Sequence record: OR670062.1
Direction: 5' to 3' (one strand)
Length of the DNA stretch: 37,572 bases
Source of the DNA: Escherichia phage SKA5
Part shown: positions 1 to 22,573 of the stretch, in pieces
Position numbering within the stretch: position 1 is the first letter of the stretch
How the letters are laid out: each line of letters begins with the position of its first letter
Position numbers and translations under genes: made by a program
Notes under the pieces: model-generated
What the model was told of the DNA's origin: nothing
Seen by the model: only the letters and a program-made list of their open reading frames with translations
Databases searched by the model: none

Positions 1-1734
1 TCATAGAATTAAGAGATCATCGTCCGGATCAAGAGATGAGAGGAAATCGTCAGGTTCTTTGAGCATTGCCCGACCGATCGTCATAATCAGTGCAACCGCA
101 CCATCGATTTTGTTTTCCGCCTGCTCCTTGACGGGCTTCACTAAATCATCGTTACCAGGCATGTTTTTGCCGACCACATTGCCGATACACCAGGTCATGA
201 TGGGATTGCCGTCATGATGAAAGCGCCCCGATTCAATCGCTGCTTCCAGCTCTTTCATCGGGTCGGACATATTGGCGAAGTTCTGGACGATAGTAACGGG
301 ATTCAGGTCTTCATCAGCAAGGTCATGTGACAGCCCGGTCGCCCCGAAAGGGTCGATGGGTGACTCACTGACCGGGCTGATTTTGTTCGCCGCTTTGGCC
401 TCTTCGAGGATGTAGCGATAATCCACCTCTGCACCATCGGTAACGGTCAGGACGCCCATTTCCACCCATTTCTGAAAGCGTTCGGCTGTCCGGCGATCTT
501 CATTTTTCTCGACGCTGTACACCGTGTCATACGGTACCCAGAAGCGCGGGGCCACACTGTAGTAATGCGTTTTACCGTCAATCTCGCGGGTATAAAGTCG
601 CGCCATGCTGTTCATATCCAGCTTACGCGCCAGGTCAAAGGCCAGAATGCACGGTTGCCCCTCGAACTGCTCAAGGGTCAGTGATTTATCCTCGCAGCTC
701 TGCCAGCTCACCAGATTAAAATAAGCCGAACGCGCCGACACCCAGATATTGAGGTGTTTTGTTTTAAAGACGTTTGCCAGACGGGCGTTATTTTTCGCAC
801 GCTGCTGCTGACTTAACAAAAATTCGCGATAAACCGACACGCCAATATTTGGATTGGCTTTTTCCAGCACCTGCGGGTCGGTCCAGTCGTCACCTTCGTC
901 AACGGTATAGATGATCCCGAACAGTTCATCGTTAGGCACCGAGCCGTTGAGCATCTCGATGACTTCCCGCCGCTTGTCGTAGCACGGCCCCTCAATGTTG
1001 TACCCGGCGGTGGTGATGGCCCACATCAGTGGCTGACGTCGCGCCCCCATCCCGGTAAGCATCGTGGTGTAAAGCGCATCGGTGGCGTGCTCGTGATATT
1101 CATCCACCACCGCACAGTGGGGTGATGAACCATCACCGGGGTTACCGATCAGCGGTTCAAACCGCGCGCCATCCTCCGGACGGTTCATGTTTGAAGCGTT
1201 AACCTCAATCCCGAACGCTTCCGTCAGCATGGGTGTGCGTTTACACATCAGTCGCGCCGGGCGAAAGACTTCCCACGCCTGTTTCTCTGTCGTGGCACCG
1301 GAATACACTTCCGCGCCAAACTCGTTATCACAGGCAAAACAATACAGGGCAACACCGGCAGAGATTGCTGATTTGCCGTTCTTACGGGGGATTTCGGTAT
1401 ACACCTCCCGGAAGCGGCGCAACCGGGTGCCTTTATTGACCCAGCCAAACGCACAGCAGATCACAAATAGCTGCCACGGCTCCAGCGTGATGGGCATCCG
1501 TTTGAATGCCCACTCACCCTTGGTGTGCGGCAACAGCTGAATAAATTTCGCGGCCCGTTCAGCCAGGTCCTTGTCGAAGCGGTAACGAAACGACTTACTT
1601 TTTTCCGCCATCAGGTCATCAAGATGGCGCTGGCAGGCCTGAATCACAAACTGGCAGGCCACAATCTTTCCGCGCACGACATCACGGGCATACTGATTGG
1701 CAGCATTTACGTTGGGGTAAGATTTCCGGCTCAT
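1..1734 (-). CDS. phage terminase large subunit
   Basis: 577-aa ORF, complete (stop codon is the reverse complement of nt 1-3). Start overlaps the stop of the upstream small terminase (ATGA). Sits after an HNH gene and a P27-type small subunit, as in HK97-like packaging modules. Confidence 0.9.
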
Positions 1735-2225
1735 GATTCGATGATTTTCAGAAACGGGTTAGTGGCTTTCTTCTGCCCCGCCAGGCCAATCAGACGCTGG
1801 CGGCTGCTGGGGTCGAGTCCGAGCATTGCCCCCGTGCTGCTCATCTCGGACTCCTGTTCTTTTTTGGCGGTCAGCTCCGGATTTTTGACCATACCGCCCA
1901 TTGCACCGGTGATGGTGTTGCCCTGTCTGGCAATATTTTTCACGGCACGTCGCCAGAACTCGTAGGCCACGCACCACCGCTCAAGCACCGCGAGGTCAGT
2001 CACGCACAGCAGGCCCTGACCGCAGAGTTCTTTAGTTGTCAGTTGCCACATGATCGTAGCGAGAGGGAGATCTTCTTCAGCGAACCACTCCGGTGGCTCA
2101 ACACCTTTGATGGGCGTAAAAACAGGTTCATCTTTATTCAGGGCTCGCTTGCCGGGGTTTCCGGCCAGCGCCTTGCGCGCCGTTGGCTTGGGGCGACGCC
2201 CGGAACGCCCCGCCGTTCCAGCCAT
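1731..2225 (-). CDS. phage terminase small subunit (P27-family-like)
   Basis: Basic N-terminus [14 protein letters not shown] typical of P27-type small terminases. ATG at 2225 has AGGAG 8 nt upstream; the ORF-track start at 2234 is GTG without a Shine-Dalgarno (SD) sequence. Confidence 0.8.
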
Positions 2226-2350
2226 ATGCGGCACTCCTGGTTAAATTTCATTTTTCGCGGGTATAAAAAAACGATGGGGCGGGCAGTCCGGAAGACGTCA
2301 GGCTGCAGGGATTTGACCCGCCCCTCCCCTCAGACAGTTGAGAATTATTA

Positions 2351-2701
2351 TCACTTTAACCGTTCACGGGCCGTCTTCGCCTTATGACACGGCCAGCACA
2401 GACTCTGCAGATTACTGTCAGCATCAGTGCCGCCATGCGCTTTAGGGATGATGTGGTCAACAGTTTTCGCCTCACGCACCACACCAGCACGCAGACATAA
2501 TTGACACAGGCCTTTGTCACGCTTCAGAACACGCGCGCGGATACTGTCCCACTTCGAACCGTAGCCGCGCTGATGACGGGATTGTCCAGGTTTGTATTGC
2601 TTCCAGCCTTCGCTTTTGTGGCTTTCGCAGTAGCCTGAAGGGTCAGTAGTGGTATGGCGGCAGCCGCGAACACGGCAGGCTTTCGGGGTTCGTGGCGGCA
2701 T
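2351..2701 (-). CDS. HNH endonuclease (packaging-associated)
   Basis: 116 aa with Cys-rich zinc motifs and an HNH signature (DHIIPKAHGGTD...N...CWPCH). Lies immediately upstream of the terminase genes, as in HK97-like cos phages. Confidence 0.85.
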   Translation of the reverse strand: MPPRTPKACRVRGCRHTTTDPSGYCESHKSEGWKQYKPGQSRHQRGYGSKWDSIRARVLKRDKGLCQLCLRAGVVREAKTVDHIIPKAHGGTDADSNLQSLCWPCHKAKTARERLK

Positions 2702-2747
2702 TAATGCTTCCCTTTAAGTTATTACGATGGAACAGACCATAGAAATG

Positions 2748-2775
2748 GCAATAAAAAACCGCCCGGAGGCGGTTC
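2748..2775 (-). terminator. rho-independent terminator downstream of moron ORF 2794..3114
   Basis: On the minus-strand transcript: hairpin CCGCCTCCGGGCGG followed by a U-run. Confidence 0.55.
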
Positions 2776-2793
2776 AATTATCATCTCGATAAA

Positions 2794-3114
2794 CTAAATC
2801 AGATCACCAATGTATTTTGCACTAATTGAAATTTGCATCTGAGGCATTCCGACCACAGATCCATTTAACAGGTAATCACGTCCTCGTTCCTGCAAAGAAA
2901 GACTCAATTCAAAGTTCTTTACCCCAGGGAAAACCGAGGTGACATTTAAATCATGCTGCGATACGCGCAGAATAAGTTGGCTACCGTCAATTTTTCCCTG
3001 ATACGTAAAACCAAAATCTCCGCCGTTTACTGCATTGTTTTTGACAACTACGGTACCATTACCAAAATCACGTTGATTGCTTCTGAAAACAACAAAATAG
3101 ATACCATCTTTCAT
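2794..3114 (-). CDS. hypothetical protein (AT-rich moron between lysis and packaging genes)
   Basis: 106-aa ORF with no signal peptide, its own terminator, and visibly lower GC than the flanks. No family recognised. Confidence 0.5.
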   Translation of the reverse strand: MKDGIYFVVFRSNQRDFGNGTVVVKNNAVNGGDFGFTYQGKIDGSQLILRVSQHDLNVTSVFPGVKNFELSLSLQERGRDYLLNGSVVGMPQMQISISAKYIGDLI

Positions 3115-3476: not shown

Positions 3477-3753
3477 CCGCAACAGCCACTTTGATATCTT
3501 CCTGGGTTCTCTGTGACTCCAGTGCGATCTGCTGTTTTGCATGTTGATTCGCCTCCTGAATGATGTTCGTTATTGCCATAGTACGCAGAACATTCGCGGT
3601 GATAGCCTCAGTAGAATCAGCTCGCTGTTCCGCAGCATCAGCACGCTTCTGCTCCTCCAGAAACTTTCCATGATAGTGATTCGCTGACCAGACAAGACCA
3701 CCAGCGACACAAGCAATAAACGTTAAAATGAGCGCCCAATAACTCATCTTCAT
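3361..3753 (-). CDS. Rz-like inner-membrane spanin
   Basis: 130 aa with an N-terminal TM helix then a charged, coiled-coil-like region. Follows the endolysin with an ATGA overlap and contains the overlapping Rz1-like ORF. Confidence 0.7.
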   Translation of the reverse strand: MKMSYWALILTFIACVAGGLVWSANHYHGKFLEEQKRADAAEQRADSTEAITANVLRTMAITNIIQEANQHAKQQIALESQRTQEDIKVAVADDDCASRPVPAAAADRLRKYANSLRPGSGSSVTSQPDG

Positions 3754-4364
3754 ACCAGCAGCGCCGCCCGCGCCTTGTTGTATCGGACCTTACGATCCTC
3801 AATACCGTTCAAACCGCCGTTAATGATGCGCGTAACACGGTTAATATCGGCACCGTAGATCATGCAACCTTTAGAGGTGTAGAACCATGCAGCTGAGCGC
3901 GCAGCCTGTAGTTCCTGTTCCAGTTGTTCAGGTGAAGTCACCAGATCTAACTTCAGCGCCGCGCCACAGATGCGATAATTATGGAGGCCAGTGATTTGAA
4001 TTAATCCTCTACCACGATATTTCCAGCCATCACCTGGTGCTTTGTTACCCAGTCGGTTGCTATACACCAGATTGGCAATAGCATCCTGACGAGCTGCATG
4101 TCCGGATGTTCTGCCAAGGGCATCAGCCTGCTGCTGTGTGATCCTCTTTCCGAACGTCGCCACAAGCGCAGATGGTGTGTAGTTAAGATTTTCAACTACG
4201 GCGCTAAACCCCATCGACTCATGGCCTACCTGAGCGATAAACATTGCCTGATCCGCTGGTGCTGTAATGCCGAATTCCTTCATCGCCGCATCAATGTGCG
4301 GAAACCAGCGCGCAGCCAGCCCGGCGCTAATACCAGCCGCCTTTTGAAATAATTGTTGGTTCAT
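3750..4364 (-). CDS. endolysin, glycoside hydrolase family 19 type
   Basis: 204 aa with a GH19/chitinase-like catalytic region (AQVGHESMGF, GRGLIQITG, NY). Follows the holin-like genes. Confidence 0.85.
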   Translation of the reverse strand: MNQQLFQKAAGISAGLAARWFPHIDAAMKEFGITAPADQAMFIAQVGHESMGFSAVVENLNYTPSALVATFGKRITQQQADALGRTSGHAARQDAIANLVYSNRLGNKAPGDGWKYRGRGLIQITGLHNYRICGAALKLDLVTSPEQLEQELQAARSAAWFYTSKGCMIYGADINRVTRIINGGLNGIEDRKVRYNKARAALLV

Positions 4365-4645
4365 TAGTGCCTCAGATGATCAACCAGACGTGCAACGTTG
4401 CCTCTGACGGCCACCAGCACGGAAAGAAAAATAGTGTTCGCCACGATAATGGGCCATGAGGAATGAGGATAAATCCCACAGAGATAGGCCAACGGAACAG
4501 CACTGTATGTAACAGTAATCAGCCAGGCTAAACGTGAAACCCAAGGACGATGCCGCGAATCACCACGACGATAAAACATCAGAGTAATAACAACACAAGC
4601 ACATAACAGCGCATTTATAGTTGCTGTCGGGTCATTTAGCTCCAC
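4364..4645 (-). CDS. small membrane protein, holin/antiholin-like
   Basis: 93 aa with 2-3 predicted hydrophobic helices, located between the holin-like gene and the endolysin. Confidence 0.5.
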   Translation of the reverse strand: MELNDPTATINALLCACVVITLMFYRRGDSRHRPWVSRLAWLITVTYSAVPLAYLCGIYPHSSWPIIVANTIFLSVLVAVRGNVARLVDHLRH

Positions 4646-5018
4646 CTGAACCTCCCCGGCGCGTTATGAGCGCCACCAGCGAGCCGATATCCTGATTATT
4701 CAGGAACGTCAGGATTTTAACGGCTAAAGCAGAGACGATTACGGCACCAATAGCATCCAGAGGTTTATCACTGTATCCGGTCAAGTTCGCCAGCTTGGAG
4801 CCAACCAACCCAGAGCAAAGAATCCCGGCAATATATGACACGATAAAATATGCCAGTCGGCGCGATGCACTCAGATCTGCTGCTGTTGCTATGTAGAATA
4901 CAGCCCCTGCAAATGCGCCAAATACAACGCCGTAATCAGTTCCGGTCAGCAGTCCATAAACACTGGCACCCGTCAGGGCACCACCAGCCAGCCCAGTACC
5001 GGAAATCGGATCGGACAT
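4632..5018 (-). CDS. holin-like membrane protein
   Basis: 128 aa with Gly/Ala-rich hydrophobic helices and a charged C-terminus. Strong SD (AGAGGGGG). First gene of the lysis cassette. Confidence 0.55.
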   Translation of the reverse strand: MSDPISGTGLAGGALTGASVYGLLTGTDYGVVFGAFAGAVFYIATAADLSASRRLAYFIVSYIAGILCSGLVGSKLANLTGYSDKPLDAIGAVIVSALAVKILTFLNNQDIGSLVALITRRGGSGGAK

Positions 5019-5097
5019 TTAGCCCCCTCTTAATTGCTGTTGGTCCTCTCAGATATGAGGGGAAGGGATCTTAATGACAGTCTGTTTATTATTTCAG

Positions 5098-5355
5098 TCA
5101 AATACTACCCTGTTGATGATTTCTCAGAAGCGAACTTGACTCCCAGGGGAAACTCAACTTTCCGTTAAAACCACCAGCAGACATTCGTTCAATTTCCACA
5201 GAAATATCACTGAGCCGTTCTTCAAGCTCTGCTTTTTCTTTTACCAGACGGTTATAGCGGCTTAGATGAAGCTTTTGCTGCTCCAGCCAGTCTTCAAGCT
5301 GTTCAACAGTCATACCAGGGTTAAAAAAATATGGCTGCTGCTTTTCGCCCTGCAT
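5098..5355 (-). CDS. hypothetical protein (first ORF downstream of the late terminator)
   Basis: 85 aa from the ATG at 5355 with a GGAGG SD. The longer ORF-track start (5424) would lie upstream of the terminator hairpin, so the shorter start is preferred. Confidence 0.45.
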   Translation of the reverse strand: MQGEKQQPYFFNPGMTVEQLEDWLEQQKLHLSRYNRLVKEKAELEERLSDISVEIERMSAGGFNGKLSFPWESSSLLRNHQQGSI

Positions 5356-5370
5356 TATTGACCTCCAGAA

Positions 5371-5398
5371 AAGCAAAAACCCCGCCGAAGCGAGGTTT
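5371..5398 (-). terminator. tR'-like intrinsic terminator (expected target of Q antitermination)
   Basis: Hairpin CCTCGC-TTCG-GCGGGG followed by UUUUU on minus-strand RNA, roughly 65 nt downstream of the predicted late promoter. Confidence 0.5.
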
Positions 5399-5445
5399 GT
5401 TATGATTTCGTTAACGGCAGACATACAAAGCCCATCGTTAGGAGA

Positions 5446-5474
5446 ATCCTAACCATATTTTTTGAAAAATGCAA
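5446..5474 (-). promoter_or_regulatory. putative late promoter (pR'-like)
   Basis: TTGCAT-N17-TAGGAT on the minus strand, immediately downstream of the Q gene. Confidence 0.35.
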
Positions 5475-5505
5475 GCATCATGCCGCCATCTTCGGCGAAA
5501 ATCAT

Positions 5506-6258
5506 TTATCTTGTCACTTTTCTCAATTGTGTCTCTGCATATGCTTCTTCCTGCCAGCACTTTGTAACCAGTTTATCAATGACATCTGCATATCCTTTGT
5601 ACCACTGATAATCCGTCAGGTCCGGTACCAGCTTCTGGACATGATGCCGCGCCAGTGTGGTTGGTAAACGGCTAAACCGGTTGCCATTGCAACGCCCACA
5701 AATCTTATAAACAGGCACACCATGAAGCCGGGTTCTTTTTTCATCCAGGACAATACCTTTACCCTTACACCCTCTGCACGCTGTGCTGACTTCTCCCTTA
5801 CCATGGCAATGCTGACATAGTTCCTTCACCCACTCTTCCTTGATAACAGATTCCCCGCTTCTGGAGTGTTTCACCACTTCGCGCAATACATTATGAAATC
5901 CAGTACCAGCACAATGCTCACAGCGAGCCTTACTTGCCGCAGACCTGGAATAATCAGCAAAGGCAAAATTCACAAGGTAAGGGATGATCTGTAACCGGGT
6001 TTCTTCACTCAATTTGTTCAATGTCGGGTTATCCAGTGCCATCGCGTAATTGAGCAGACCTTCAATCGCAAATTGAGGATCCTGAACACCAACTTTTGCC
6101 AGGAATAAGGCAAACCCAAGCGGTGCTTTCGACTGCACCATCCCCTGCGCAGCCATCACATCCGTAATCGTTAAACCACCTGAGCCTGTCGCCGGTGCGT
6201 CATCGCTCAATTTTGGAGATTTTGGGGAGTAATATTTTGGTAAGGCTTCAAGGTTCAT
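5506..6258 (-). CDS. late-gene antitermination protein Q
   Basis: 250 aa from MNLEALPKYY. Four CxxCxGxG zinc-finger repeats. Sits directly upstream of the late promoter and lysis genes. From memory it resembles the Q protein of E. coli cryptic lambdoid prophages (QuuD-type). Confidence 0.75.
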   Translation of the reverse strand: MNLEALPKYYSPKSPKLSDDAPATGSGGLTITDVMAAQGMVQSKAPLGFALFLAKVGVQDPQFAIEGLLNYAMALDNPTLNKLSEETRLQIIPYLVNFAFADYSRSAASKARCEHCAGTGFHNVLREVVKHSRSGESVIKEEWVKELCQHCHGKGEVSTACRGCKGKGIVLDEKRTRLHGVPVYKICGRCNGNRFSRLPTTLARHHVQKLVPDLTDYQWYKGYADVIDKLVTKCWQEEAYAETQLRKVTR

Positions 6259-6271
6259 GCTCGTTCTCCAC

Positions 6272-7267
6272 TTACGCCAGTACGCCAATTGCCAGCGCAC
6301 GATCGATAAAACGAAATATCAGCTCCAGCTGGGAGCCATACTTCTCTTCAAATGCCACGGTATCCGCATGCAGCTCGTCGTGATGCTTTCTGCACAAAGG
6401 CAACACAAAGAGGTCATGCGCTTTTGTACCCATTCCACCCTGACCGTGGCCTATCAGGTGGTGGGGATCATCAGCAGGCTTTCCACAACATGCACACGGC
6501 TGTGTCTTAACCCAGCGCGTGTACTTTTCATTAACCCAGCGGCGGCGTTTTGGGCGTAACATAAAAGACTCCGGCGACTCCGGATCCACTTTCAGCGCCA
6601 GCACCTTTTTTGCCTTATCCTGGATGATGCTGGTGGCAGGAACCGAAGGCACAAGGTCACTTTCCCGGGTGACAGACGGCACAACAGGCTTTGGTAATCT
6701 CAGTGCCTTACGGGCTGCACTTTCCGGTAAGGCATCCGCCAGGTCATTACGAATCAGCCACCAGCACAGTTCCGGCATTGTCACAACGTGACTATCATCA
6801 AAACCGAGATCCCGACGCACAACAGACAACACCCAGCGGGCACAGTTATCCGTTGCCATTGATTCCAGCCGTTCCGTGAACTGATCGCGCAGCTGGTTAT
6901 CGCAGTGCCAGCACAGACGGATTGCGCCCGGAGCGTGTCGCATTGTGGTCATGTTCTCGCTGTGCCAGTCGGAATGAGGCCACTGGCAGCCTTTTTCACG
7001 AAGTAACCAGCTTTCAAGACATTCCACGCCACCAGCACGACGGATCACTGCCTCATTGCGGAACACGGCCCGAACGGCAGGATCATCCGCCAGCGGTTGT
7101 GATGCCGCCGGAACGGCACCACTGGCGAAAGATGAATAACGTTCCGGCTCAGGCTCCAGCAGAACACGCCCCTGCATAAACAGGGGCATCAGCTCTGAAC
7201 CTGGCCTGAACAATACGATCCCCATACGCGGGGCAATTTCAGGGGTCAGTAGTGCTCTCACGGTCAC
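6272..7267 (-). CDS. DUF968-like prophage protein with C-terminal HNH-like zinc motif
   Basis: 331 aa; C-terminus CACCGK...HHLIGHG...CRKHHDELH. Typical nin-region position between the KilA-N gene and Q. Confidence 0.5.
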   Translation of the reverse strand: MTVRALLTPEIAPRMGIVLFRPGSELMPLFMQGRVLLEPEPERYSSFASGAVPAASQPLADDPAVRAVFRNEAVIRRAGGVECLESWLLREKGCQWPHSDWHSENMTTMRHAPGAIRLCWHCDNQLRDQFTERLESMATDNCARWVLSVVRRDLGFDDSHVVTMPELCWWLIRNDLADALPESAARKALRLPKPVVPSVTRESDLVPSVPATSIIQDKAKKVLALKVDPESPESFMLRPKRRRWVNEKYTRWVKTQPCACCGKPADDPHHLIGHGQGGMGTKAHDLFVLPLCRKHHDELHADTVAFEEKYGSQLELIFRFIDRALAIGVLA

Positions 7268-7268
7268 C

Positions 7269-8078
7269 TCAATGAACGGTATCGAGCAGCTTTAACAGCT
7301 CAGGGAATCGGGATTCGAAGAAATGCGGCTGCGTCTCGCGCGGATTTGCAGGACTGGTGATGTTCTTGCCGAACATGCAGCCTTTCGCCGTCAGCGACCA
7401 GAATTTTTTGATGTTGTTAATCGCGGTACGGCTGTATCGTTCGCGTTGTTCAACGATCCCCAGCTTCACCATCTGGTGATATGCCTGATTAGCCGTCAGG
7501 CGGATACCATACTGCTTCAGCAGTGCACTCAGCGACAGCGTGGGGCGACTTGAGCCATCAGGCGCGTCAGCAGGAGCATCAATGGCATAGCGCGGTGCCA
7601 GATTCGGTAAGCCAACAGCCTCCTGAAGCTTCTGACAGGCTCCAAGCACTGATGAGTTAGACAGATTTAATTCCCGGCGCATAAAGTCCAGCAGGATCAC
7701 GCCAGCCTGCATCTTGTCAGCAGCCTGTCCGGATAATTTTTCCGGTGCGCTGGTTACCATGTCGAAAGTACGGATCACCTTCAGATGGAATGACGGGCTG
7801 ATCCACATTGCATAGGCATACACCAGTTCCTTGCAGACATAAGTTCCCCGTTCATTTCCCCCATGAATCACACTCACCGGGTCAACACCCAAATTCTGGG
7901 TGTTGGTCAATTCATGAACGAGTTCAACAGTTTGTTGGCTGGAAAGAAACTTTCCTGGCTCCTTGGTTCTGGCATTTGCACCAGATGCTACTGCTGCGCG
8001 ATGCAGATCGTTCAGGCTGTAACGCCCATAAGCATCACGACGAACTTCAATACCATCAATGACCATCAGATTATTCAT
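7269..8078 (-). CDS. KilA-N domain protein
   Basis: N-terminal KilA-N-like domain (MVIDGIEVR, YSLNDLH). The ATG at 8078 has an AGGAG SD; the ORF-track start is 8111. Confidence 0.65.
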   Translation of the reverse strand: MNNLMVIDGIEVRRDAYGRYSLNDLHRAAVASGANARTKEPGKFLSSQQTVELVHELTNTQNLGVDPVSVIHGGNERGTYVCKELVYAYAMWISPSFHLKVIRTFDMVTSAPEKLSGQAADKMQAGVILLDFMRRELNLSNSSVLGACQKLQEAVGLPNLAPRYAIDAPADAPDGSSRPTLSLSALLKQYGIRLTANQAYHQMVKLGIVEQRERYSRTAINNIKKFWSLTAKGCMFGKNITSPANPRETQPHFFESRFPELLKLLDTVH

Positions 8079-8097
8079 ACTTCGTTTCTCCTCTTGA

Positions 8098-8487
8098 TCA
8101 GGCGGCTGCACCCGCCGTTTTCTCGTACTTACTGATAGTGATCTCGACCTTCCCTTCCGGGATAACCGGTCCCCACTCCACCAGCATTCTTTTCACCTGG
8201 CTGTCGTCTTCCCACACACCCGCGTGGGTCAGGGCGTCAAACAGTGCCTTGTTATAGTTGTCCAGATCGCGGATCCGGTTATCCGGAGGAAACAACACAA
8301 TCTCCACTGAAGCAGGTGCCGACGTTGGTTTCGGCAGACGACGTAACTGCTCAACTATTGCTGCGCACGCCGCGCTCTGGAATTTTCGCCCCGCCGCACT
8401 TATCAGGCTCTTACCAGCAAATGCCCCTTTGTTGGGGTGTCGCCAGTAGGTGTTCACGCTGGGTGGAAAAGGCAGAATCAGCTTCAT
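8098..8487 (-). CDS. rusA: Holliday junction resolvase RusA
   Basis: 129 aa with RusA hallmarks (PPSVNTYW, RDLDNYNKALFDALT, acidic catalytic cluster). Confidence 0.85.
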   Translation of the reverse strand: MKLILPFPPSVNTYWRHPNKGAFAGKSLISAAGRKFQSAACAAIVEQLRRLPKPTSAPASVEIVLFPPDNRIRDLDNYNKALFDALTHAGVWEDDSQVKRMLVEWGPVIPEGKVEITISKYEKTAGAAA

Positions 8488-8810
8488 ACTTTCAGCCCCC
8501 TCTCATGTAACCAGTGGGTTGCACGCAGCCTGGCGTTTTCCTCACCGGCAAGCAGTGAGCGGATAATCCCGACCGCCTCGCTGTCGTCATCCTTCACCGC
8601 GGTATGAAGCGTGATGCCCCGGGCCACGCCACGCTTTATCGTGATGACGCCTTTTTTCTCCAGTGCGCGAAGATGCTCCACCGCTGCATTCACTGAACGG
8701 TATCCCAGCATGGTTGCCACCTCCTGATTGGTTGGCGGGAAGCCACGTTCTTTCTGATAAGAAATCAGCATATCCAGCACCTGCTGCTGGCATTGAGTTA
8801 ACGTCGTCAT
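8484..8810 (-). CDS. LexA N-terminal DNA-binding-domain-like protein (no peptidase domain)
   Basis: 108 aa strongly resembling the LexA winged-helix domain (QQQVLDML, GFPPTNQEVATMLGYRSVNAAVEHLRALEKKGVI). Lacks the S24 autoprotease region. Confidence 0.65.
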   Translation of the reverse strand: MTTLTQCQQQVLDMLISYQKERGFPPTNQEVATMLGYRSVNAAVEHLRALEKKGVITIKRGVARGITLHTAVKDDDSEAVGIIRSLLAGEENARLRATHWLHERGLKV

Positions 8811-16830: not shown

Positions 16831-17250
16831 TTACTCATCATCAATAGATGATACGCAATATTTATTTTTAAATTTAAGGTTCTTTGGCGTAACTTCATCA
16901 GAGATATCAAAACCGTCCAGAATTCTATTGAATGTAGCTTCTGGCATATCATCATGAACAGAAATCTCACCCGATCGCTGCTTTCTAACCATGTTATCCA
17001 CTCGCCAAATTATAGCTTCAGCGTAAACAACATAACTTGGATGCTTGATAAAGCGATGATCACCAGAATTCAAGACGCAAGACGGATCGTGGGGGACACC
17101 ATCCTTGATACTAGAAATATTAACAACTAAAACACAATAACAATCGTTAACGGGGTAATAAACAGGATCATTACAAATCACATGAAGATGATTGCATGGC
17201 CCAGTTGGGGCAAGCACAGTTCCTTTCCTGTATGGCTGATAATCCGTCAT
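16831..17250 (-). CDS. hypothetical protein; candidate toxin/effector partner of the Panacea-domain protein
   Basis: 139 aa, Cys/His-containing, AT-rich codon usage. Its start overlaps the stop of the upstream Panacea-like gene (ATGA). No family recognised. Confidence 0.5.
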   Translation of the reverse strand: MTDYQPYRKGTVLAPTGPCNHLHVICNDPVYYPVNDCYCVLVVNISSIKDGVPHDPSCVLNSGDHRFIKHPSYVVYAEAIIWRVDNMVRKQRSGEISVHDDMPEATFNRILDGFDISDEVTPKNLKFKNKYCVSSIDDE

Positions 17251-17819
17251 GATAATTGCAAAGAAAATTCCTTAAGTTTCTGAGATTCTTCCATTTTGCC
17301 AATTATGCGATTAGCCTCATCCTCGCTTTTACCCTCACTGATCAGCATTTCTTTCAGGTCTATAGGCTTACGAGAATTGCCAGGATCGTGCCACTCTGGA
17401 CAAACGCTTTCTAAATGCGTCATATTTGCGAGATCAAATCGGTTCATATGCCCATACCGAGAATAGATTTCATCTAAAATCCGGATATCTGCACGACTCA
17501 ATTCATCAAAGACCTCGTCTGCATCCATTTCCCTCGGATCTGAACGCAACGATACATTATGCCCGTTCGTCTCTATCAAGTTGTACCAGTAGTCACCAAT
17601 GCCTTCAGCCTTACCGCGAATCAAGTTCAGCGTATTCGACATGACTGGTCCAAATTTCATAGAGTAAAGGCTATCTTCGCCGATCATCCTGCCATGCTTC
17701 AAAATCGACTGGCGGTTAGACAGATAGAGCAACTTCATCAATTTCAGATATGCCATGCGCCCACCTCGCTTAAGAAGTAGGTATGCAGCCATTTGAGCTA
17801 CTTTTTCTTCGCAAAACAT
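17247..17819 (-). CDS. Panacea (DUF4065, GepA/SocA-like) domain protein; candidate antitoxin
   Basis: 190 aa with motifs I associate with DUF4065 (AAYLL, KLMKLLYLSNRQS, FGPV, ILDEIYSRYG...LANMTHLESVCPEW). First gene of an AT-rich minus-strand unit. Confidence 0.6.
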   Translation of the reverse strand: MFCEEKVAQMAAYLLLKRGGRMAYLKLMKLLYLSNRQSILKHGRMIGEDSLYSMKFGPVMSNTLNLIRGKAEGIGDYWYNLIETNGHNVSLRSDPREMDADEVFDELSRADIRILDEIYSRYGHMNRFDLANMTHLESVCPEWHDPGNSRKPIDLKEMLISEGKSEDEANRIIGKMEESQKLKEFSLQLS

Positions 17820-18265: not shown

Positions 18266-19363
18266 ATGGCGTACTATAACATAGAGAAACGACTAAAATC
18301 CGATGGCACACCACGCTATCGCTGTAATGTGATTATCAAAGAAAAAGGTGTTATCACTTACAGGGAAAGCAAAACATTCCCTAAACATGCTCATGCCAAA
18401 ACATGGGGCACACAGAAAGTGATGGAATTAGATCTATATGGCATTCCATCATCAAATGCAGTTGACGGACTTACAGTCCGTGACTTACTACACAAATATT
18501 TAAATGACCCAAATGCCGGAGGTAAAGCAGGCCGTACTAAAAGATATGTGCTGGAACTGCTTATGGATAGTGACATCTCCGCGATCAAACTATCTGAACT
18601 GACAGAAAATGACGTAATTGAACATTGCAGGCTAAGAAACAACGCTGGCGCAGGTCCAGCAACAGTCAGCCACGATGTTAGTTATCTTGGCAGTGTTCTG
18701 GATGCGGCCAAACCTGTATACGGAATTAATTACACATCAAACCCGGCGAAAAGTGCTCGTCCATATCTACTTAAACTTGGTTTGATTGGTAAATCAAACC
18801 GTCGTAATCGTAGACCAGCATCTGATGAACTGGACATGCTCATTGAAGGCCTTCAACAACGATCTACTCATAAATGCTCAAAAATTCCGTTCGTTGATAT
18901 CCTCAAATTTTCTGTGTGGTCCTGTATGCGAATCGGAGAAGTATGCCGGTTACGATGGGAAGATCTCGACCAGGAACAAAAATCTATACTCGTAAGAGAC
19001 AGGAAAGATCCACGCAAAAAGGAAGGCAACCACATGAAAGTAGCCTTGCTTGGGGAAGCCTGGGATATCGTCCAACGACAGCCCAAAAAATCGGAATTCA
19101 TTTTTCCATATAACAGCACTTCTATTACTGCGGGATTTCAGAGGGTAAGAAGCAAATTAGGTATTAAGGATCTGCGATACCATGATTTGCGTAGAGAAGG
19201 GGCAAGTCGCTTATTTGAGGCTGGTTTTAGTATTGAGGAAGTAGCCCAGGTTACAGGGCATCGTTCATTAAACGTGCTATGGCAGGTATATACCGAACTG
19301 TATCCGAAATCTTTACATAATCGTTTTGAAGAGCTCCAAAGGAGCAGAAATAAGACCCCTTGA
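18266..19363 (+). CDS. tyrosine-type site-specific integrase
   Basis: 365 aa with C-terminal catalytic-domain motifs (HDLRREGASRLF, GHRSLNVLWQVY). Confidence 0.9.
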   Translation: MAYYNIEKRLKSDGTPRYRCNVIIKEKGVITYRESKTFPKHAHAKTWGTQKVMELDLYGIPSSNAVDGLTVRDLLHKYLNDPNAGGKAGRTKRYVLELLMDSDISAIKLSELTENDVIEHCRLRNNAGAGPATVSHDVSYLGSVLDAAKPVYGINYTSNPAKSARPYLLKLGLIGKSNRRNRRPASDELDMLIEGLQQRSTHKCSKIPFVDILKFSVWSCMRIGEVCRLRWEDLDQEQKSILVRDRKDPRKKEGNHMKVALLGEAWDIVQRQPKKSEFIFPYNSTSITAGFQRVRSKLGIKDLRYHDLRREGASRLFEAGFSIEEVAQVTGHRSLNVLWQVYTELYPKSLHNRFEELQRSRNKTP

Positions 19364-19816: not shown

Positions 19817-20380
19817 TTATTTCGTTTGAATGCCAGTAACAGGAAATCGTTTATATAGGGTTGATAGCCCAACGTTATAGATACGTGCAACATAACGCCG
19901 TGATTTCCCTGCCGCTATGAGCGCTCCCATCTGTTGCCACTGCTCGTCGCTAAACTTCGGTCTACGCCCACCAATCCGGCCTTTGGATCTGGCAATAGCC
20001 AAACCAGCTAAAGTTCGCTCGCTATTCAAATCAGATTCATACTGCGCAGCAGAAAGAATATTACGGAAATTATAGCGACCACTTGCTGTTTTCAGGTCTA
20101 CGCCATCTGTAATACTCCGAAAATTAACACCTTTTTCGTGCAGATTTTGAAACATCAATAGCGCATGCAGCACATTTCTCCCTATCCGATCTAACTTCCA
20201 GACAATCAACTCATCTCCACTTTTCATCACCGTAATTAATTCCTTTAACACAGGGCGATTAGCTGTTCTGCCACTGGCATATTCTTCATAAATTCGCTCA
20301 CAGCCAGCTGACTCAAGTGCAAGACGTTGCAACTCTGTATCCTGATGATTTGTTGATACACGAACATACCCGTAAATCAT
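19817..20380 (-). CDS. serine DNA invertase (Pin/Gin/Hin family)
   Basis: 187 aa; N-terminal resolvase catalytic domain (GYVRVSTNHQ with the Ser nucleophile) and a C-terminal HTH. Adjacent to the invertible tail-fibre segment. Confidence 0.9.
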   Translation of the reverse strand: MIYGYVRVSTNHQDTELQRLALESAGCERIYEEYASGRTANRPVLKELITVMKSGDELIVWKLDRIGRNVLHALLMFQNLHEKGVNFRSITDGVDLKTASGRYNFRNILSAAQYESDLNSERTLAGLAIARSKGRIGGRRPKFSDEQWQQMGALIAAGKSRRYVARIYNVGLSTLYKRFPVTGIQTK

Positions 20381-20439
20381 GAGTACTTCTCCTGTTGTAA
20401 AAACAGGAGAAGAGGCGAAATATCACCTGATTCAGAAAA

Positions 20440-20465
20440 ATATTTGAAAGGTTGGTTTGGGAGAA
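20440..20465. repeat. inversion crossover site (left), hix/gix-like
   Basis: ATATTTGAAAGGTTGGTTTGGGAGAA; inverted copy of the core TTCTCCCAAACCAA found at 22271-22296. Confidence 0.6.
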
Positions 20466-20918
20466 GGTTCGGCATTACCCGTTGGTGTGCCTGTCCCGTG
20501 GCCTTCCGCCACTCCGCCAACAGGCTGGCTAAAATGCAATGGTGCGGCTTTTTCTGCTGAAGAATACCCGGAACTGGCAAAGGTTTATCCGACAAATAAA
20601 TTGCCTGATTTACGCGGTGAATTTATTCGTGGCTGGGATGACGGACGTGGAGTGGATGCCGGGCGACAATTATTATCTTCACAGGGGGATGCAATAAGAA
20701 ATATTGAGGGATTCGCAGATGGCGGGATCGGTATGTCTTTTGATGCAATCAGAGGGGCTTTTTACGATGCAGGAACACGATCAGCGAGAATGCCGAATAA
20801 CACAACTACTATAGACAAAACCGATGACCTTGGATTCGACGCCTCTCGTGTCGTGCCAACAGCTAATGAAAACCGTCCACGTAACATCGCCTTTAATTAT
20901 ATTGTGAGGGCTGCATAA
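20457..20918 (+). CDS. alternative tail-fibre C-terminal segment (silent orientation)
   Basis: Open frame starts exactly at the crossover site (LGEGSALPVG) with a stop codon just upstream. It would fuse to the constant fibre N-terminus after inversion. Confidence 0.6.
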   Translation: MGEGSALPVGVPVPWPSATPPTGWLKCNGAAFSAEEYPELAKVYPTNKLPDLRGEFIRGWDDGRGVDAGRQLLSSQGDAIRNIEGFADGGIGMSFDAIRGAFYDAGTRSARMPNNTTTIDKTDDLGFDASRVVPTANENRPRNIAFNYIVRAA

Positions 20919-21511
20919 TGAAACCTGTTTTTGATGAAAATGGGCTGGCTACAGTGCCGGGTGATATGCGTTGTTTTTATTATGATGCAGTAACGTCTGA
21001 ATATACGGGCTGGTCTGATGAATATATTAATACTGGCGTAAGTATGCCCGCCTGTTCCACTGGTATTGACCCGGGCGAATACATTCCGGGGAAAGTGGCA
21101 GTATTTACGGGTAAGGGATGGAGCCATGAAGAAGACCACCGCAATGAGACTGTTTACTCAATCGAAAATGGCGCAGCTGTTACAGTGGATTATATCGGTG
21201 CCATCAAAGACGGTTATGTCACGCTTTCACCGTTAACGCCATACGATAAATGGGATGGTGAGAAATGGGTGACAGATACTGAGGCACAGCATAGTGCCGC
21301 ACTAGACGCGGCAGAAGCACAGCGCCAGTCGCTGATTGATGCTGCAATGGCTTCCATCAGTCTGATTCAACTGAAATTACAGGCCGGGCGGAAGCTGACG
21401 CAGGCAGAAACAACCCGACTTAACGCCGTGCTGGATTATATTGACGCGGTGACGGTAACAGATACCAGCACTGCGCCGGATGTCATCTGGCCTGAACTGC
21501 CGGAGGCGTAG
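20918..21511 (+). CDS. tail fibre assembly protein (partner of the alternative fibre)
   Basis: 197 aa; conserved Tfa C-terminus (LDYIDAVTVTDTSTAPDVIWPELP). Confidence 0.75.
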   Translation: MKPVFDENGLATVPGDMRCFYYDAVTSEYTGWSDEYINTGVSMPACSTGIDPGEYIPGKVAVFTGKGWSHEEDHRNETVYSIENGAAVTVDYIGAIKDGYVTLSPLTPYDKWDGEKWVTDTEAQHSAALDAAEAQRQSLIDAAMASISLIQLKLQAGRKLTQAETTRLNAVLDYIDAVTVTDTSTAPDVIWPELPEA

Positions 21512-21923
21512 GCCATTCAATATCTGGCGCACCGGAAGTATCGACCAGTTCCAGTGTGTCCAGATAATCCAGCCACAAATTATATTGCGCCAGTTCCTCA
21601 CCTTTCAGGCGACCAATCGCCGCTTTACCAGGCCATTGCTTACTGTTTATGTATTCGTTGACCTGATTAATCAATTGCTGCTTTTCCAGTTCGGCTGCGG
21701 CAATTTGTTCCTCATGAGTTGGCGGTGGAATATCAATCCATGCAGGCATTCCGTCGATGACACCTCTGTATTTTCCTTCTGGTGCTTCCTTCATAAATTC
21801 GGCGGCAACAGTGTCGTCAATTTCGATTCCATCATCGGGCCATTCGCCGGATTCCTGATAAGCGATTTTAAGCTCCACAGGGAAAAACGCATTTTTATCG
21901 GCACTGAAAATATATTTCTGCAT
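21483..21923 (-). CDS. tail fibre assembly protein
   Basis: 146 aa with the same Tfa C-terminal motif (LDYLDTLELVDTSGAPDIEWPTPP). Convergent with the other Tfa gene and overlapping it by 29 nt. Confidence 0.75.
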   Translation of the reverse strand: MQKYIFSADKNAFFPVELKIAYQESGEWPDDGIEIDDTVAAEFMKEAPEGKYRGVIDGMPAWIDIPPPTHEEQIAAAELEKQQLINQVNEYINSKQWPGKAAIGRLKGEELAQYNLWLDYLDTLELVDTSGAPDIEWPTPPAVQAR

Positions 21924-21925
21924 TT

Positions 21926-22573
21926 CTACCGTCCTATCGAAATATAACTGAATCTGTATTGCTGTGAGATATCACTGGTTGCCACACGCCACGCTGAATT
22001 ACTGATATGTTCAAAATTTACAGACAAAACCTGCGGGGCAGGATGCGACGGATCTGACTGAACGGCATCAGACATAACACTGACTGAAACCATCGGCTGA
22101 TTAGGGAATGGTATAGGGAAGTGTCCACTGATAAAGCGGGTCGTGTTTCCTGAAAAAGTGCCAAACTGAACAATATATCCACCTGGTAGCCTGAACCATC
22201 CCGAACCAGAAGCGAATGCTCCCATATCCGGTATCTGATTATCTCCTGTGCCCACATCCCTTTTCGCCGCTTCTCCCAAACCAAGGTTTTCGAGAGCCGT
22301 TTGCACAGTGCCATCCGATTTGATATCGCCAAACGGATTCTTGCGGCTTAACAGCAGCGCACGAAGTGCGGTAAGCAGCTGGTCGTGCCGCGCCTTCTCG
22401 AGACTGGCACCGGATGCCTCTACAACGCTGCAAAGCTCCTCCTGCAACATGTCAAAGTAGTCATCATCCAGATCGGTGGCAGGCGTGCCAGTCTGGGGGT
22501 TACCACGGGTAAAACCGTTCTTACCCGCGCCGAACTTATCCTTCTGCGCGGTTTTCGTGTCTATACGATGCAT
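21926..22573 (-). CDS. tail fibre protein (constant N-terminus plus currently expressed variable C-terminus)
   Basis: 215 aa, last gene of the tail operon. The inversion crossover site lies inside the gene at 22271-22296. Confidence 0.7.
22271..22296. repeat. inversion crossover site (right), hix/gix-like
   Basis: TTCTCCCAAACCAAGGTTTTCGAGAG inside the tail-fibre gene; resembles the hixL pattern. Confidence 0.6.

What the first reader, a model, noticed from the sequence alone, without database searches (positions are those of the whole stretch)
2235..2350. Candidate cos / packaging initiation region between HNH and small terminase
HK97-like phages with an HNH-terS-terL arrangement cut their cos site close to the small terminase gene. 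This 115-bp intergenic stretch is GC-rich with short G and C runs (GGGGAGGGGCGGG, CCCGCCCC) and has no ORF.
Basis: inference. Interest (0 to 1): 0.2.

Follow-up and report, generated by a model that had tools for sequence, protein, structure and literature searches.

The report
Known cos site of SfV-like phage
The stretch between the HNH and small-terminase genes is the cohesive-end (cos) site where this SfV/HK97-type phage cuts its DNA for packaging; it carries the same 10-base end sequence already measured in its close relative phage SfI, so it is real but ordinary.

Summary
All genes here lie on the minus strand: HNH (2351-2701), P27-family terS (1731-2225) and HK97-type terL (1-1734). The window is about 96-99.6% identical over this module to Shigella phages SfV, SfII, SfIV and SfI. 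Sequencing of SfI virion ends (PMC3636060) found a 10-nt cos, 5'-TGCCCGCCCC-3'. That exact 10-mer lies at 2285..2276 on the minus strand. The cos-site annotated in phage phiP27 (CGCCCGCCCC), the right end of the HK97 genome record and the ends of the Edwardsiella phage EPP-1 record all align to the same columns.

Comparison of about 100 related loci shows three parts. The first is a G-run plus TCAAATC box (2306-2329), which sits a fixed 21 nt before GAC and is shared even with HK97. The second is the cut site, GAC|TGCCCGCCCC| (2276-2288). The third is a T-tract followed by CGCGAAAAATGAA (2247-2271), which changes with the TerS subtype and lies where HK97 TerS binds its DNA.

The 8-bp inverted repeat shows no covariation, and no terminator is called. 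Only the central 55 bp is GC-rich (71%); the interval as a whole is 50% GC.

Novelty: already known. Interest is low. Side findings are strong, oriented Chi enrichment near the right genome end, and satellite islands that carry this cos without any terminase genes.

The parts
2351..2701 (-). HNH endonuclease gene, the terminase accessory nuclease (counterpart of HK97 gp74 and SfV orf53)
   Evidence: Pfam HNH E=2.3e-16. 38% identity to HK97 gp74 over 65 aa, E=8e-11. Full-length match to the PDB 5h0m HNH endonuclease, E=3e-12.
2306..2329 (-). Left element of cos: a G-run plus TCAAATC box (GGGGAGGGGCGGGTCAAATCCCTG). Its function is not established; it is a candidate docking or termination element, placed like lambda cosQ.
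   Evidence: Nearly invariant in 14 aligned phages, including HK97 (GGGGGGGGGATCAAATC). A G-run is present upstream of 105 of 115 usable IMG/VR pattern hits and absent from the 10 chance hits. The element is also kept in five loci found through TerS protein rather than DNA pattern.
2289..2305 (-). Spacer that varies in sequence but not in length. Together with CCTG (2306-2309) it forms the 21 nt between TCAAATC and GAC.
   Evidence: The spacer is 21 nt in 9 of 11 independently sampled phages, including HK97, and 20 and 22 nt in the other two. Its sequence is not conserved.
2276..2288 (-). Cut site GAC|TGCCCGCCCC|. The 10-nt cohesive end is 2285..2276. The inferred top-strand nick lies between 2276 and 2275. 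The inferred bottom-strand nick lies between 2285 and 2286 (plus strand reads GGGGCGGGCA^GTCC), giving 3' overhangs.
   Evidence: Exact match to the 10-nt gap found at SfI virion ends. The phiP27 annotated cos-site CGCCCGCCCC aligns here. The SfI, HK97 and EPP-1 records are linearised at this column. The 3' polarity is inferred from the 'gap' in run-off reads and from HK97's 10-nt 3' overhang.
2241..2271 (-). Right element of cos: T7 tract, ATACCCGCGAAAAATGAAATTTAA. The invariant core CGCGAAAAATGAA is 2259..2247, at +17..+29 from the top-strand nick. This is the candidate small-terminase binding site, placed like lambda cosB.
   Evidence: The core is invariant in phages whose TerS is 65-100% identical to the window's, and it stays at a fixed +17. 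It is replaced by a different motif where terS belongs to another P27 subfamily. HK97 TerS binds +15..+29, contacting a G:C pair at +21 and an A/T tract at +24..+29.
1731..2225 (-). Small terminase gene (P27 family). A GGAG ribosome-binding site lies at 2237..2234.
1..1734 (-). Large terminase gene (HK97 gp2 type)
   Evidence: Pfam TerL_ATPase and TerL_nuclease. 26% identity to HK97 gp2 over 520 aa, E=7e-31. 99.6% DNA identity to SfV over the shared 693 nt.

Best explanation
This is the cos site of a complete, circularly permuted SfV/e14-like temperate myophage genome. It is the place where terminase (P27-family TerS plus HK97-type TerL), helped by the adjacent HNH endonuclease, cuts concatemeric DNA to start and to end packaging.

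Shown by identity or alignment to sites with experimental or annotated support: the cohesive end is the 10-mer 5'-TGCCCGCCCC-3' on the minus strand (2285..2276). DNA is packaged from the terS side, so the left genome end starts at 2275 and runs towards 1.

Inferred: the ends are 10-nt 3' overhangs, as in HK97. The top-strand nick lies between 2276 and 2275, and the bottom-strand nick between 2285 and 2286.

Inferred from comparative footprinting and the HK97 structure: TerS recognises the element T7-ATACCCGCGAAAAATGAA just inside the left end. Its core lies at +17..+29, the same place as the HK97 TerS site at +15..+29. There TerS arrests and positions TerL.

More speculative: the conserved G-run/TCAAATC box lies exactly 21 nt (42 nt, about four helical turns, from the top-strand nick) on the other side of the cut. 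It may be a docking or termination element for the TerL-HNH part of the enzyme, placed like lambda cosQ. The HNH protein may make the bottom-strand nick at CA^GT while TerL makes the top-strand nick.
For: (1) Over window 1600-2900 the DNA is 98-99.6% identical to SfV, SfII, SfIV and SfI across the shared terS/terL side and 96% identical to E. coli phage vB_EcoM-720R4.
(2) Run-off sequencing of SfI virion ends found a 10-nt gap, TGCCCGCCCC (PMC3636060). The identical 10-mer occurs once in the window, at 2285..2276.
(3) The phiP27 record annotates CGCCCGCCCC as 'cos-site', and it aligns to the same columns.
(4) The SfI, HK97 and Edwardsiella phage EPP-1 records all end or start at this column.
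(5) The gene order is HNH-cos-terS-terL, with TerL E=7e-31 and HNH E=8e-11 against HK97 gp2 and gp74. HK97 gp74 stimulates cos cleavage and HK97 has 10-nt 3' overhangs.
(6) Footprint: the G-run/TCAAATC box and GACYGCC are conserved with a fixed 21-nt spacer in 9 of 11 sampled phages, including HK97 and five loci anchored on TerS protein.
(7) The right element tracks the TerS subtype. Class A (CGCGAAAAAT) goes with TerS 77-100% identical to the window's. Class B (CGCCGCAGGTT...) goes with a TerS that shows no more than 33% identity to the window's where any alignment is found, although HNH stays 66-81% identical.
(9) The bottom-strand nick context is CG^GT in HK97 and phiP27 and CA^GT here. Terminase-linked HNH nickases nick CG^GT, with CA^GT as a star site (PMC3592412). 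The window HNH matches the PDB 5h0m HNH endonuclease over its full length.
(10) Chi sites: 18 against 1.5 expected, 16 on the phage top strand, and 11 of those 16 within 9.6 kb of the proposed right end (P=3.5e-4). This is the orientation and position expected if the right cos end is the free end.
(11) The site is present in 1,129 of 5,426 complete E. coli genomes, always annotated between HNH and a P27-family terS in the 10 rows listed.
Against: No virion DNA from this particular phage was examined, so whether it is active is unknown. The polarity of the overhang is inferred, not measured here. The SfV cos was only 'postulated' according to the SfI paper. I could not read how the phiP27 and EPP-1 termini were determined.

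The IMG/VR scan required GGTCAAATC and GACNGCC, so conservation of those bases in that set is by construction. Only the BLAST-anchored and protein-anchored sets are independent. HK97 gp74 has been described as non-specific.
Confidence: 0.92

Rival explanations
1. The GC-rich inverted repeat (GGGGCGGG at 2324..2317 and CCCGCCCC at 2283..2276 on the minus strand) followed by a U-run is an intrinsic terminator or attenuator hairpin that separates the HNH/lysis transcript from the terminase genes. Alternatively it is a cruciform needed for cutting.
For: A perfect 8-bp inverted repeat with 33 nt between the arms. It is followed 4 nt later by T7 on the coding strand. The minimum-free-energy RNA fold pairs the two arms.
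Against: The terminator scan does not call it, because the loop is far above 3-8 nt, whereas it does call a canonical terminator upstream at 2775..2756. The fold energy is ordinary (z=-0.12; 87 of 200 shuffles fold as well). Across 59 distinct G-box/cut-site combinations, cognate pairs form no longer stems than non-cognate pairs (Watson-Crick 5.86 vs 5.58; with G-U 8.49 vs 8.58). The repeat drops to 4-6 bp in Klebsiella-type, phi467-type and HK97 sites. The late operon has to read through into terS and terL.
Confidence: 0.04
2. The sequence is a cos-like relic. The prophage packages by a headful (pac) mechanism, or is defective, so nothing is cut here.
For: No virion data exist for this exact element. 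Many E. coli prophages of this type (e14-like) are cryptic, and the relative in strain 720632 carries an IS3 insertion and pseudogenes.
Against: The window holds a full set of intact-looking packaging, head, tail, lysis, immunity and integration genes in a 37.6-kb circular permutation. TerL is of the HK97 cos type. The cos 10-mer and both flanking elements are identical to those of plaque-forming or inducible phages (SfI, SfV, vB_EcoM-720R4). The SfI and SfIV papers contrast these terminases with the pac-type terminases of Sf6 and SfX.
Confidence: 0.04
3. The conserved blocks are transcription or translation signals for terS (promoter, operator, leader) rather than packaging signals.
For: The right element lies 15-45 nt upstream of the terS start and travels with the terS subtype.
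Against: No sigma-70-like site is found in 2226-2350 on either strand. In the Providencia-type locus L137 a KilA-N gene is inserted between the site and terS, yet the right element stays next to the cut site, about 800 nt from terS. Satellite islands keep the whole site, right element included, with no terS downstream.
Confidence: 0.03

Closest known systems
cos site of Shigella flexneri serotype-converting myophages SfI, SfV, SfII and SfIV
   Same: The identical 10-nt cohesive-end sequence TGCCCGCCCC. The same position between the HNH gene (SfV orf53) and terS. An identical right flank through the terS start. Terminase DNA 98-99.6% identical.
   Different: Only a few substitutions, in the variable spacer and in the HNH gene (SfV spacer CTCTGTGACC against CCCTGCAGCC here). 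No end mapping has been done for this element itself.
cos-site of Stx2e phage phiP27 (the type member of the P27 small-terminase family)
   Same: The annotated 10-bp cos-site CGCCCGCCCC aligns to the same columns. The G-run/TCAAATC box, the 21-nt spacer, GAC and the T-tract plus ACCCGCGAAA motif are the same.
   Different: The first overhang base is C, not T. TerS is only 49% identical. The A/T pattern after CGCGAAA differs (ATTAAAAAT against AATGAAAT).
HK97 cos with gp74 (HNH), gp1 (TerS) and gp2 (TerL)
   Different: TerS has no detectable sequence similarity to gp1. The overhang sequence differs (CGCCGCCAAA against TGCCCGCCCC). The right-element sequence differs (CTAACCCGATTTTTT against ATACCCGCGAAAAAT, with the A/T tract on the other strand). 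HK97 is a siphovirus, while this phage has a contractile Mu-like tail.
Bacteriophage lambda cos (cosQ-cosN-cosB)
   Same: The three-part logic: an element upstream of the nick site, a nick site, and a TerS-binding element between the nick site and the terS gene. The cut is cos-specific and unit-length. The interplay of Chi orientation with the free right end is also shared.
   Different: Lambda makes 12-nt 5' overhangs, uses a Nu1-type TerS and IHF, and has no HNH partner. There is no lambda cosN sequence here beyond chance. TerS here is Pfam Terminase_4, not Phage_Nu1.

Membership tests
SfV/SfI-group cos site | 10-nt cohesive-end sequence 5'-TGCCCGCCCC-3' | tested here: met
   Exact match at 2285..2276 on the minus strand, the only exact copy in the window.
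SfV/SfI-group cos site | Located between the HNH gene and a P27-family terS, with SfV-type terminase genes | tested here: met
   Pfam assignments. 98-99.6% DNA identity to SfV, SfII, SfIV and SfI over terS/terL.
SfV/SfI-group cos site | Virion DNA of this phage has defined cohesive ends at this site | not testable with these tools
   This needs virion DNA or raw reads. Only relatives have such data (SfI).
HK97-type HNH-assisted cos packaging | Gene order HNH - cos - terS - terL | tested here: met
HK97-type HNH-assisted cos packaging | TerL homologous to HK97 gp2, and HNH homologous to gp74 | tested here: met
   TerL 26% identity over 520 aa, E=7e-31. HNH 38% identity over 65 aa, E=8e-11.
HK97-type HNH-assisted cos packaging | TerS related to HK97 gp1 | tested here: inconclusive
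HK97-type HNH-assisted cos packaging | 10-nt 3' overhang | not testable with these tools
   Inferred from the 10-nt 'gap' in SfI run-off reads and from the in-register alignment with the HK97 ends.
HK97-type HNH-assisted cos packaging | TerS site about 15-29 bp inside the left end, made of a G:C contact plus an A/T tract | tested here: inconclusive
   An analogous conserved CGCG-A5 lies at +17..+25 and co-varies with the TerS subtype. There are no binding data.
Lambda-type cos | Nu1-type TerS and the 12-nt 5' end GGGCGGCGACCT | tested here: not met
   TerS is Terminase_4. No cosN match beyond chance: 4 hits with up to 2 mismatches against 2.9 expected, none of them in this region.
Intrinsic terminator | GC-rich stem, a 3-8 nt loop, a U-run directly after the stem, and unusual stability or covariation | tested here: not met
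   Not called by the scan. The loop is 33 nt. z=-0.12. No covariation.
Headful (pac) packaging signal | A pac-type terminase, and permuted, redundant ends | tested here: not met
   TerL groups with the cos-type HK97 gp2. The SfI and SfIV papers separate these terminases from the pac-type terminases of Sf6 and SfX. The ends themselves cannot be tested here.

The most novel reading that the evidence does not exclude
The cos of this widespread HK97/P27-type family may be a two-module site whose halves evolve and recombine independently. The right half (T-tract plus CGCG-A5) would be read by the cognate TerS. The left half is the G-run/TCAAATC box, held exactly 21 nt from a conserved GAC^YG. It is shared from HK97 to SfV-like phages even though TerL identity falls to 26-36%. 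It would be read by the HNH-TerL nuclease complex, with HNH itself making the bottom-strand nick at CR^GT. That would give the HNH partner a defined strand-specific role and give HK97-type phages a cosQ-like element. Satellite islands copy the whole site to parasitise these terminases.
Probability: 0.3. Interest if true: 0.45.

Novelty: already known. Interest (0 to 1): 0.15.

Why it matters
For annotation, this fixes the true genome ends and the packaging direction of a very common E. coli/Shigella prophage type, found in about 21% of complete E. coli genomes. It also gives a simple DNA signature, G-run-TCAAATC-N21-GACYGCC, for finding HK97/P27-type cos sites and the satellites that borrow them. 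The site itself adds nothing new, because it equals the published SfI cos. The comparative anatomy yields testable hypotheses for an open question in HK97-type packaging: which protein cuts which strand, and what lies on the non-TerS side of the cut.

Tried and rejected
(1) Hairpin, terminator or cruciform reading of the 8-bp inverted repeat. Rejected because the fold is ordinary, the scan makes no call and cognate arm pairs fare no better than shuffled pairs.
(2) A composition argument. GGGGCGGG and one-mismatch copies of the 10-mer are not enriched in the window, so chance cannot be excluded from this sequence alone.
(4) A full-text search for the 10-mer returned unrelated eukaryotic papers.
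(5) The primary papers for SfV (Allison 2002) and for HK97 gp74 (Kala 2014) are not held. Statements about them come from papers that cite them.
(6) The antisense ORF 2043-2387 has no Pfam hit. Openness of its reading frame in relatives is uninformative for 36 codons of GC-rich sequence.
(7) An IHF site in the TCAAATC box was considered only by eye against the consensus WATCAANNNNTTR, and it does not fit. This was not tested further.

Full report
WHAT IS THERE. The genes around the finding all lie on the minus strand. They are an HNH endonuclease (2351-2701), a P27-family small terminase and an HK97-type large terminase (1-1734). The mechanical ORF for terS starts at a GTG at 2234. The ATG at 2225, preceded by GGAG, is the start used in the SfV record and by PGAP in an identical E. 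coli prophage. The non-coding stretch is therefore 2226-2350 (125 bp).

Read on the coding strand it is: TGA(HNH stop)-TAATAATTCTCAACTGTCTGA-GGGGAGGGGCGGGTCAAATCCCTG-CAGCCTGACGTCTTCCG-GAC-TGCCCGCCCC-ATCG-TTTTTTT-ATACCCGCGAAAAATGAAATTTAACC-AGGAG-TGCCGCAT-ATG(terS).

'GC-rich' holds only for the central 55 bp (71% GC). The interval as a whole is 50% GC, the same as the window. A 114-aa antisense ORF crosses the region but has no family match. The G/C octamers alone are not beyond chance.

IDENTIFICATION. The 1.3 kb around the site is 98-99.6% identical, over the shared terS/terL part, to Shigella phages SfV, SfII, SfIV and SfI. It is 96% identical to E. coli phage vB_EcoM-720R4. For SfI the cohesive ends were determined by sequencing outward on virion DNA and comparing with the prophage: ten nucleotides, 5'-TGCCCGCCCC-3', were missing from both reads (PMC3636060). 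That 10-mer is present once in the window, at 2285..2276 on the minus strand. The SfI record is linearised exactly after it.

Three further records agree. The phiP27 record carries a 'cos-site' feature, CGCCCGCCCC, that aligns to the same ten columns. The HK97 genome record ends (...GAC CGCCGCCAAA) and begins (GTTTGAA...) at the same column. The virion-derived record of Edwardsiella phage EPP-1 ends ...TAC TGCCCGCCTC and begins CCCCAATTTTTATGACCGCGAAAAAT. The SfIV paper states that SfI, SfII, SfIV and SfV share this cos and package like lambda, by site-specific cutting.

GEOMETRY (inferred). A gap, rather than an overlap, in run-off reads from both ends means that the 5' ends are recessed. The ends are therefore 3' overhangs, as in HK97, which has 10-nt 3' overhangs. 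The top-strand nick then lies between 2276 and 2275. The bottom-strand nick lies between 2285 and 2286, where the plus strand reads GGGGCGGGCA^GTCC. The left genome end begins at 2275 and runs into terS.

ANATOMY FROM COMPARISON. I used three sets of relatives:
- (a) 14 phages found by BLAST and aligned.
- (b) 115 usable IMG/VR sites matching GGTCAAATC-N21-GACNGCC. Of these, 105 carry a G-run immediately upstream and 10 chance hits do not.
- (c) Five loci reached only through TerS proteins that are 65-77% identical to the window's, from Providencia, Xenorhabdus, Gilliamella and two metagenomes.

Three blocks emerge.

Block 1 is a G-run plus (G/A)TCAAATC (2306-2329). It is nearly invariant and is shared with HK97 (GGGGGGGGGATCAAATC). 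Block 2 is (G/T)AC followed by a C-rich 10-mer. The spacer between blocks 1 and 2 varies freely in sequence, but it is 21 nt in 9 of 11 independently sampled phages, including HK97 and four of the five set (c) loci. That puts TCAAATC 42 nt, about four helical turns, from the top-strand nick.

Block 3 is a T-tract followed by CGCGAAAAAT(G/C)AA. Its CGCG sits at +17..+20 in every phage with a window-type TerS. Phages with a different P27 subfamily TerS carry a different block 3, CGCCGCAGGTT(A/C)GAAAAC-T8. Their TerS shows no more than 33% identity to the window's where any alignment is found, and their TerL is only 36-42% identical. Their HNH is nevertheless still 66-81% identical, and blocks 1 and 2 are kept. 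The right half thus travels with terS and terL, and the left half with HNH.

In locus L137 a KilA-N gene separates the site from terS, yet block 3 stays beside the cut. This argues for a packaging signal rather than an expression signal.

MECHANISM. In HK97 the small terminase binds base pairs +15..+29 just inside the left end. It contacts a G:C pair at +21 and needs the A/T tract at +24..+29. It is thought to arrest the motor so that the cut site sits in the TerL nuclease. The HNH protein gp74 stimulates cutting, and the authors raise the possibility that TerL cuts one strand and gp74 the other (PMC11331095, PMC9410871, PMC13595911).

The bottom-strand nick context is CG^GT in HK97 and phiP27 and CA^GT here. 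Terminase-linked HNH nickases of Gram-positive phages nick CG^GT, with CA^GT as a star site (PMC3592412). The window HNH matches the PDB 5h0m HNH endonuclease over its full length. This fits a model in which HNH nicks the bottom strand, but it does not prove it (probability about 0.3-0.35). Block 1 has no assigned function in the papers I could read. Its position recalls lambda cosQ.

RIVALS. The perfect 8-bp inverted repeat (GGGGCGGG / CCCGCCCC, 33 nt apart) followed by T7 looks like a terminator. The scan does not call it, the fold is ordinary (z=-0.12), and cognate arm pairs across 59 variants pair no better than shuffled pairs. The repeat is a by-product of a G-rich box facing a C-rich end. 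Headful packaging, or a dead relic, cannot be excluded for this individual element without virion DNA. The complete gene set and the exact identity to working phages make both unlikely.

CONTEXT AND SIDE FINDINGS. The window is a circular permutation of a whole 37.6-kb genome. The portal gene starts at 37473, 99 nt 'after' the terL stop at 3..1, the same gap as in SfV.

Chi (GCTGGTGG) occurs 18 times against 1.5 expected. Sixteen copies are on the phage top strand, and 11 of those lie within 9.6 kb of the proposed right end. This is the pattern recently described for Chi-rich lambdoid phages, in which RecBCD enters at the free right cos end (PMC12315714). It is an independent consistency check on the position and direction of cos.

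The cos region occurs in 1,129 of 5,426 complete E. coli genomes. Several loci (L076, L097, L124, L073, L142) carry a complete site of this type with no HNH, terS or terL nearby. In E. coli 1EC213 the site lies at the end of an approximately 11-kb integrase-primase-capsid island next to a tRNA-Ile gene. That is the layout of a phage satellite that borrows its helper's packaging signal.

VERDICT. It is identical to one already determined experimentally in a close relative. Novelty: already known. Interest: low (0.15). The modular left-half/right-half anatomy and the CR^GT nick context are modest, testable additions.

Noticed in passing
window 1-37572 (junction 37572/1): The window is a circular permutation of a complete 37.6-kb SfV/e14-like myophage genome. 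The portal gene starts at 37473 (minus strand), 99 nt after the terL stop at 3..1, exactly as in SfV. Integrase (18266-19363), a CI-like repressor (12142-12795), and sheath, capsid and lysis genes are all present. There are no tRNA genes.
   Followed up: partly
window 3698-11777 mainly; all Chi positions are listed: Chi (GCTGGTGG) occurs 18 times against 1.5 expected, and no shuffle of 100 reaches 18. Sixteen copies are on the phage top strand (P=7e-4), and 11 of those 16 lie within 9.6 kb of the right cos end (P=3.5e-4). GC content there is not raised. This matches the Chi-rich, right-end-clustered class of lambdoid phages in PMC12315714.
   Followed up: partly
L076 5306-5342(-), L097, L124, L073; L142 at about 14811 (E. 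coli 1EC213, NZ_CP061101): These loci hold complete SfV-type cos sites (G-run, TCAAATC, 21-nt spacer, GACTGCC(C/A)GCCCC, T-tract, ATACCCGCGAAAAATGAAA) with no HNH, P27 TerS or TerL within -1.5 to +3.5 kb. In L142 the site lies at the end of an approximately 11-kb island that ends beside tRNA-Ile. The island encodes an integrase, an Icd-like protein, a DUF927 primase, SSB, a major capsid protein, a decoration protein and a Nu1-like TerS. It is probably a phage satellite that borrows the helper's cos. A Chi site (CTTCACGCTGGTGG) follows the cut by about 45 nt.
   Followed up: partly
window 2794-3114 (-) and 2756-2775 (-): A GrlR-like gene (Pfam GrlR, type III secretion negative regulator; 26.7 bits, just under the 26.8 cut-off) sits between the lysis cassette and HNH. 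PGAP names it 'GrlR family regulatory protein' in an identical prophage. It is followed by a canonical intrinsic terminator (GAACCGCCTCCGGGCGGTTT-TTTAT). It looks like a moron inserted just upstream of the packaging module.
   Followed up: no
window 2043-2387 (+): A 114-aa TTG ORF runs antisense across the terS 5' end, the whole cos region and the HNH 3' end. It has no Pfam hit and nothing suggests it is a gene.
   Followed up: partly
window 2206-2217 vs 2270-2281: A second imperfect inverted repeat (10 of 12 positions) pairs the cut-site flank (CGCCCCATCGTT on the coding strand) with AACGGCGGGGCG in codons 4-7 of terS. The first roughly 40 nt of terS are unusually conserved at the DNA level even in Klebsiella phages. 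This may mean the packaging signal extends into terS, or it may just reflect the conserved basic N-terminal arm.
   Followed up: no
L137 327-1200 (Providencia-type prophage, GCA_051695105.1): A KilA-N gene is inserted between the cos site and terS. The whole cos, right element included, stays next to HNH, about 800 nt from terS.
   Followed up: partly
L042 3498-3534 and 6369-6405 (IMGVR_UViG_2711768073_000020): One viral contig holds two copies of the cos site 2.9 kb apart, each preceded by an HNH gene. The first copy is followed by only a 62-aa TerL match. This may be a tandem duplication of the packaging module or an assembly artefact.
   Followed up: no
window 19817-21947 and 16831-17819: A Pin-like serine invertase (19817-20380, minus strand) lies next to opposed tail-fibre or fibre-assembly ORFs (20457-21947), which suggests an invertible host-range segment. 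A SocA/Panacea antitoxin-domain gene (17247-17819) with an unannotated 139-aa partner lies near the integrase.
   Followed up: no
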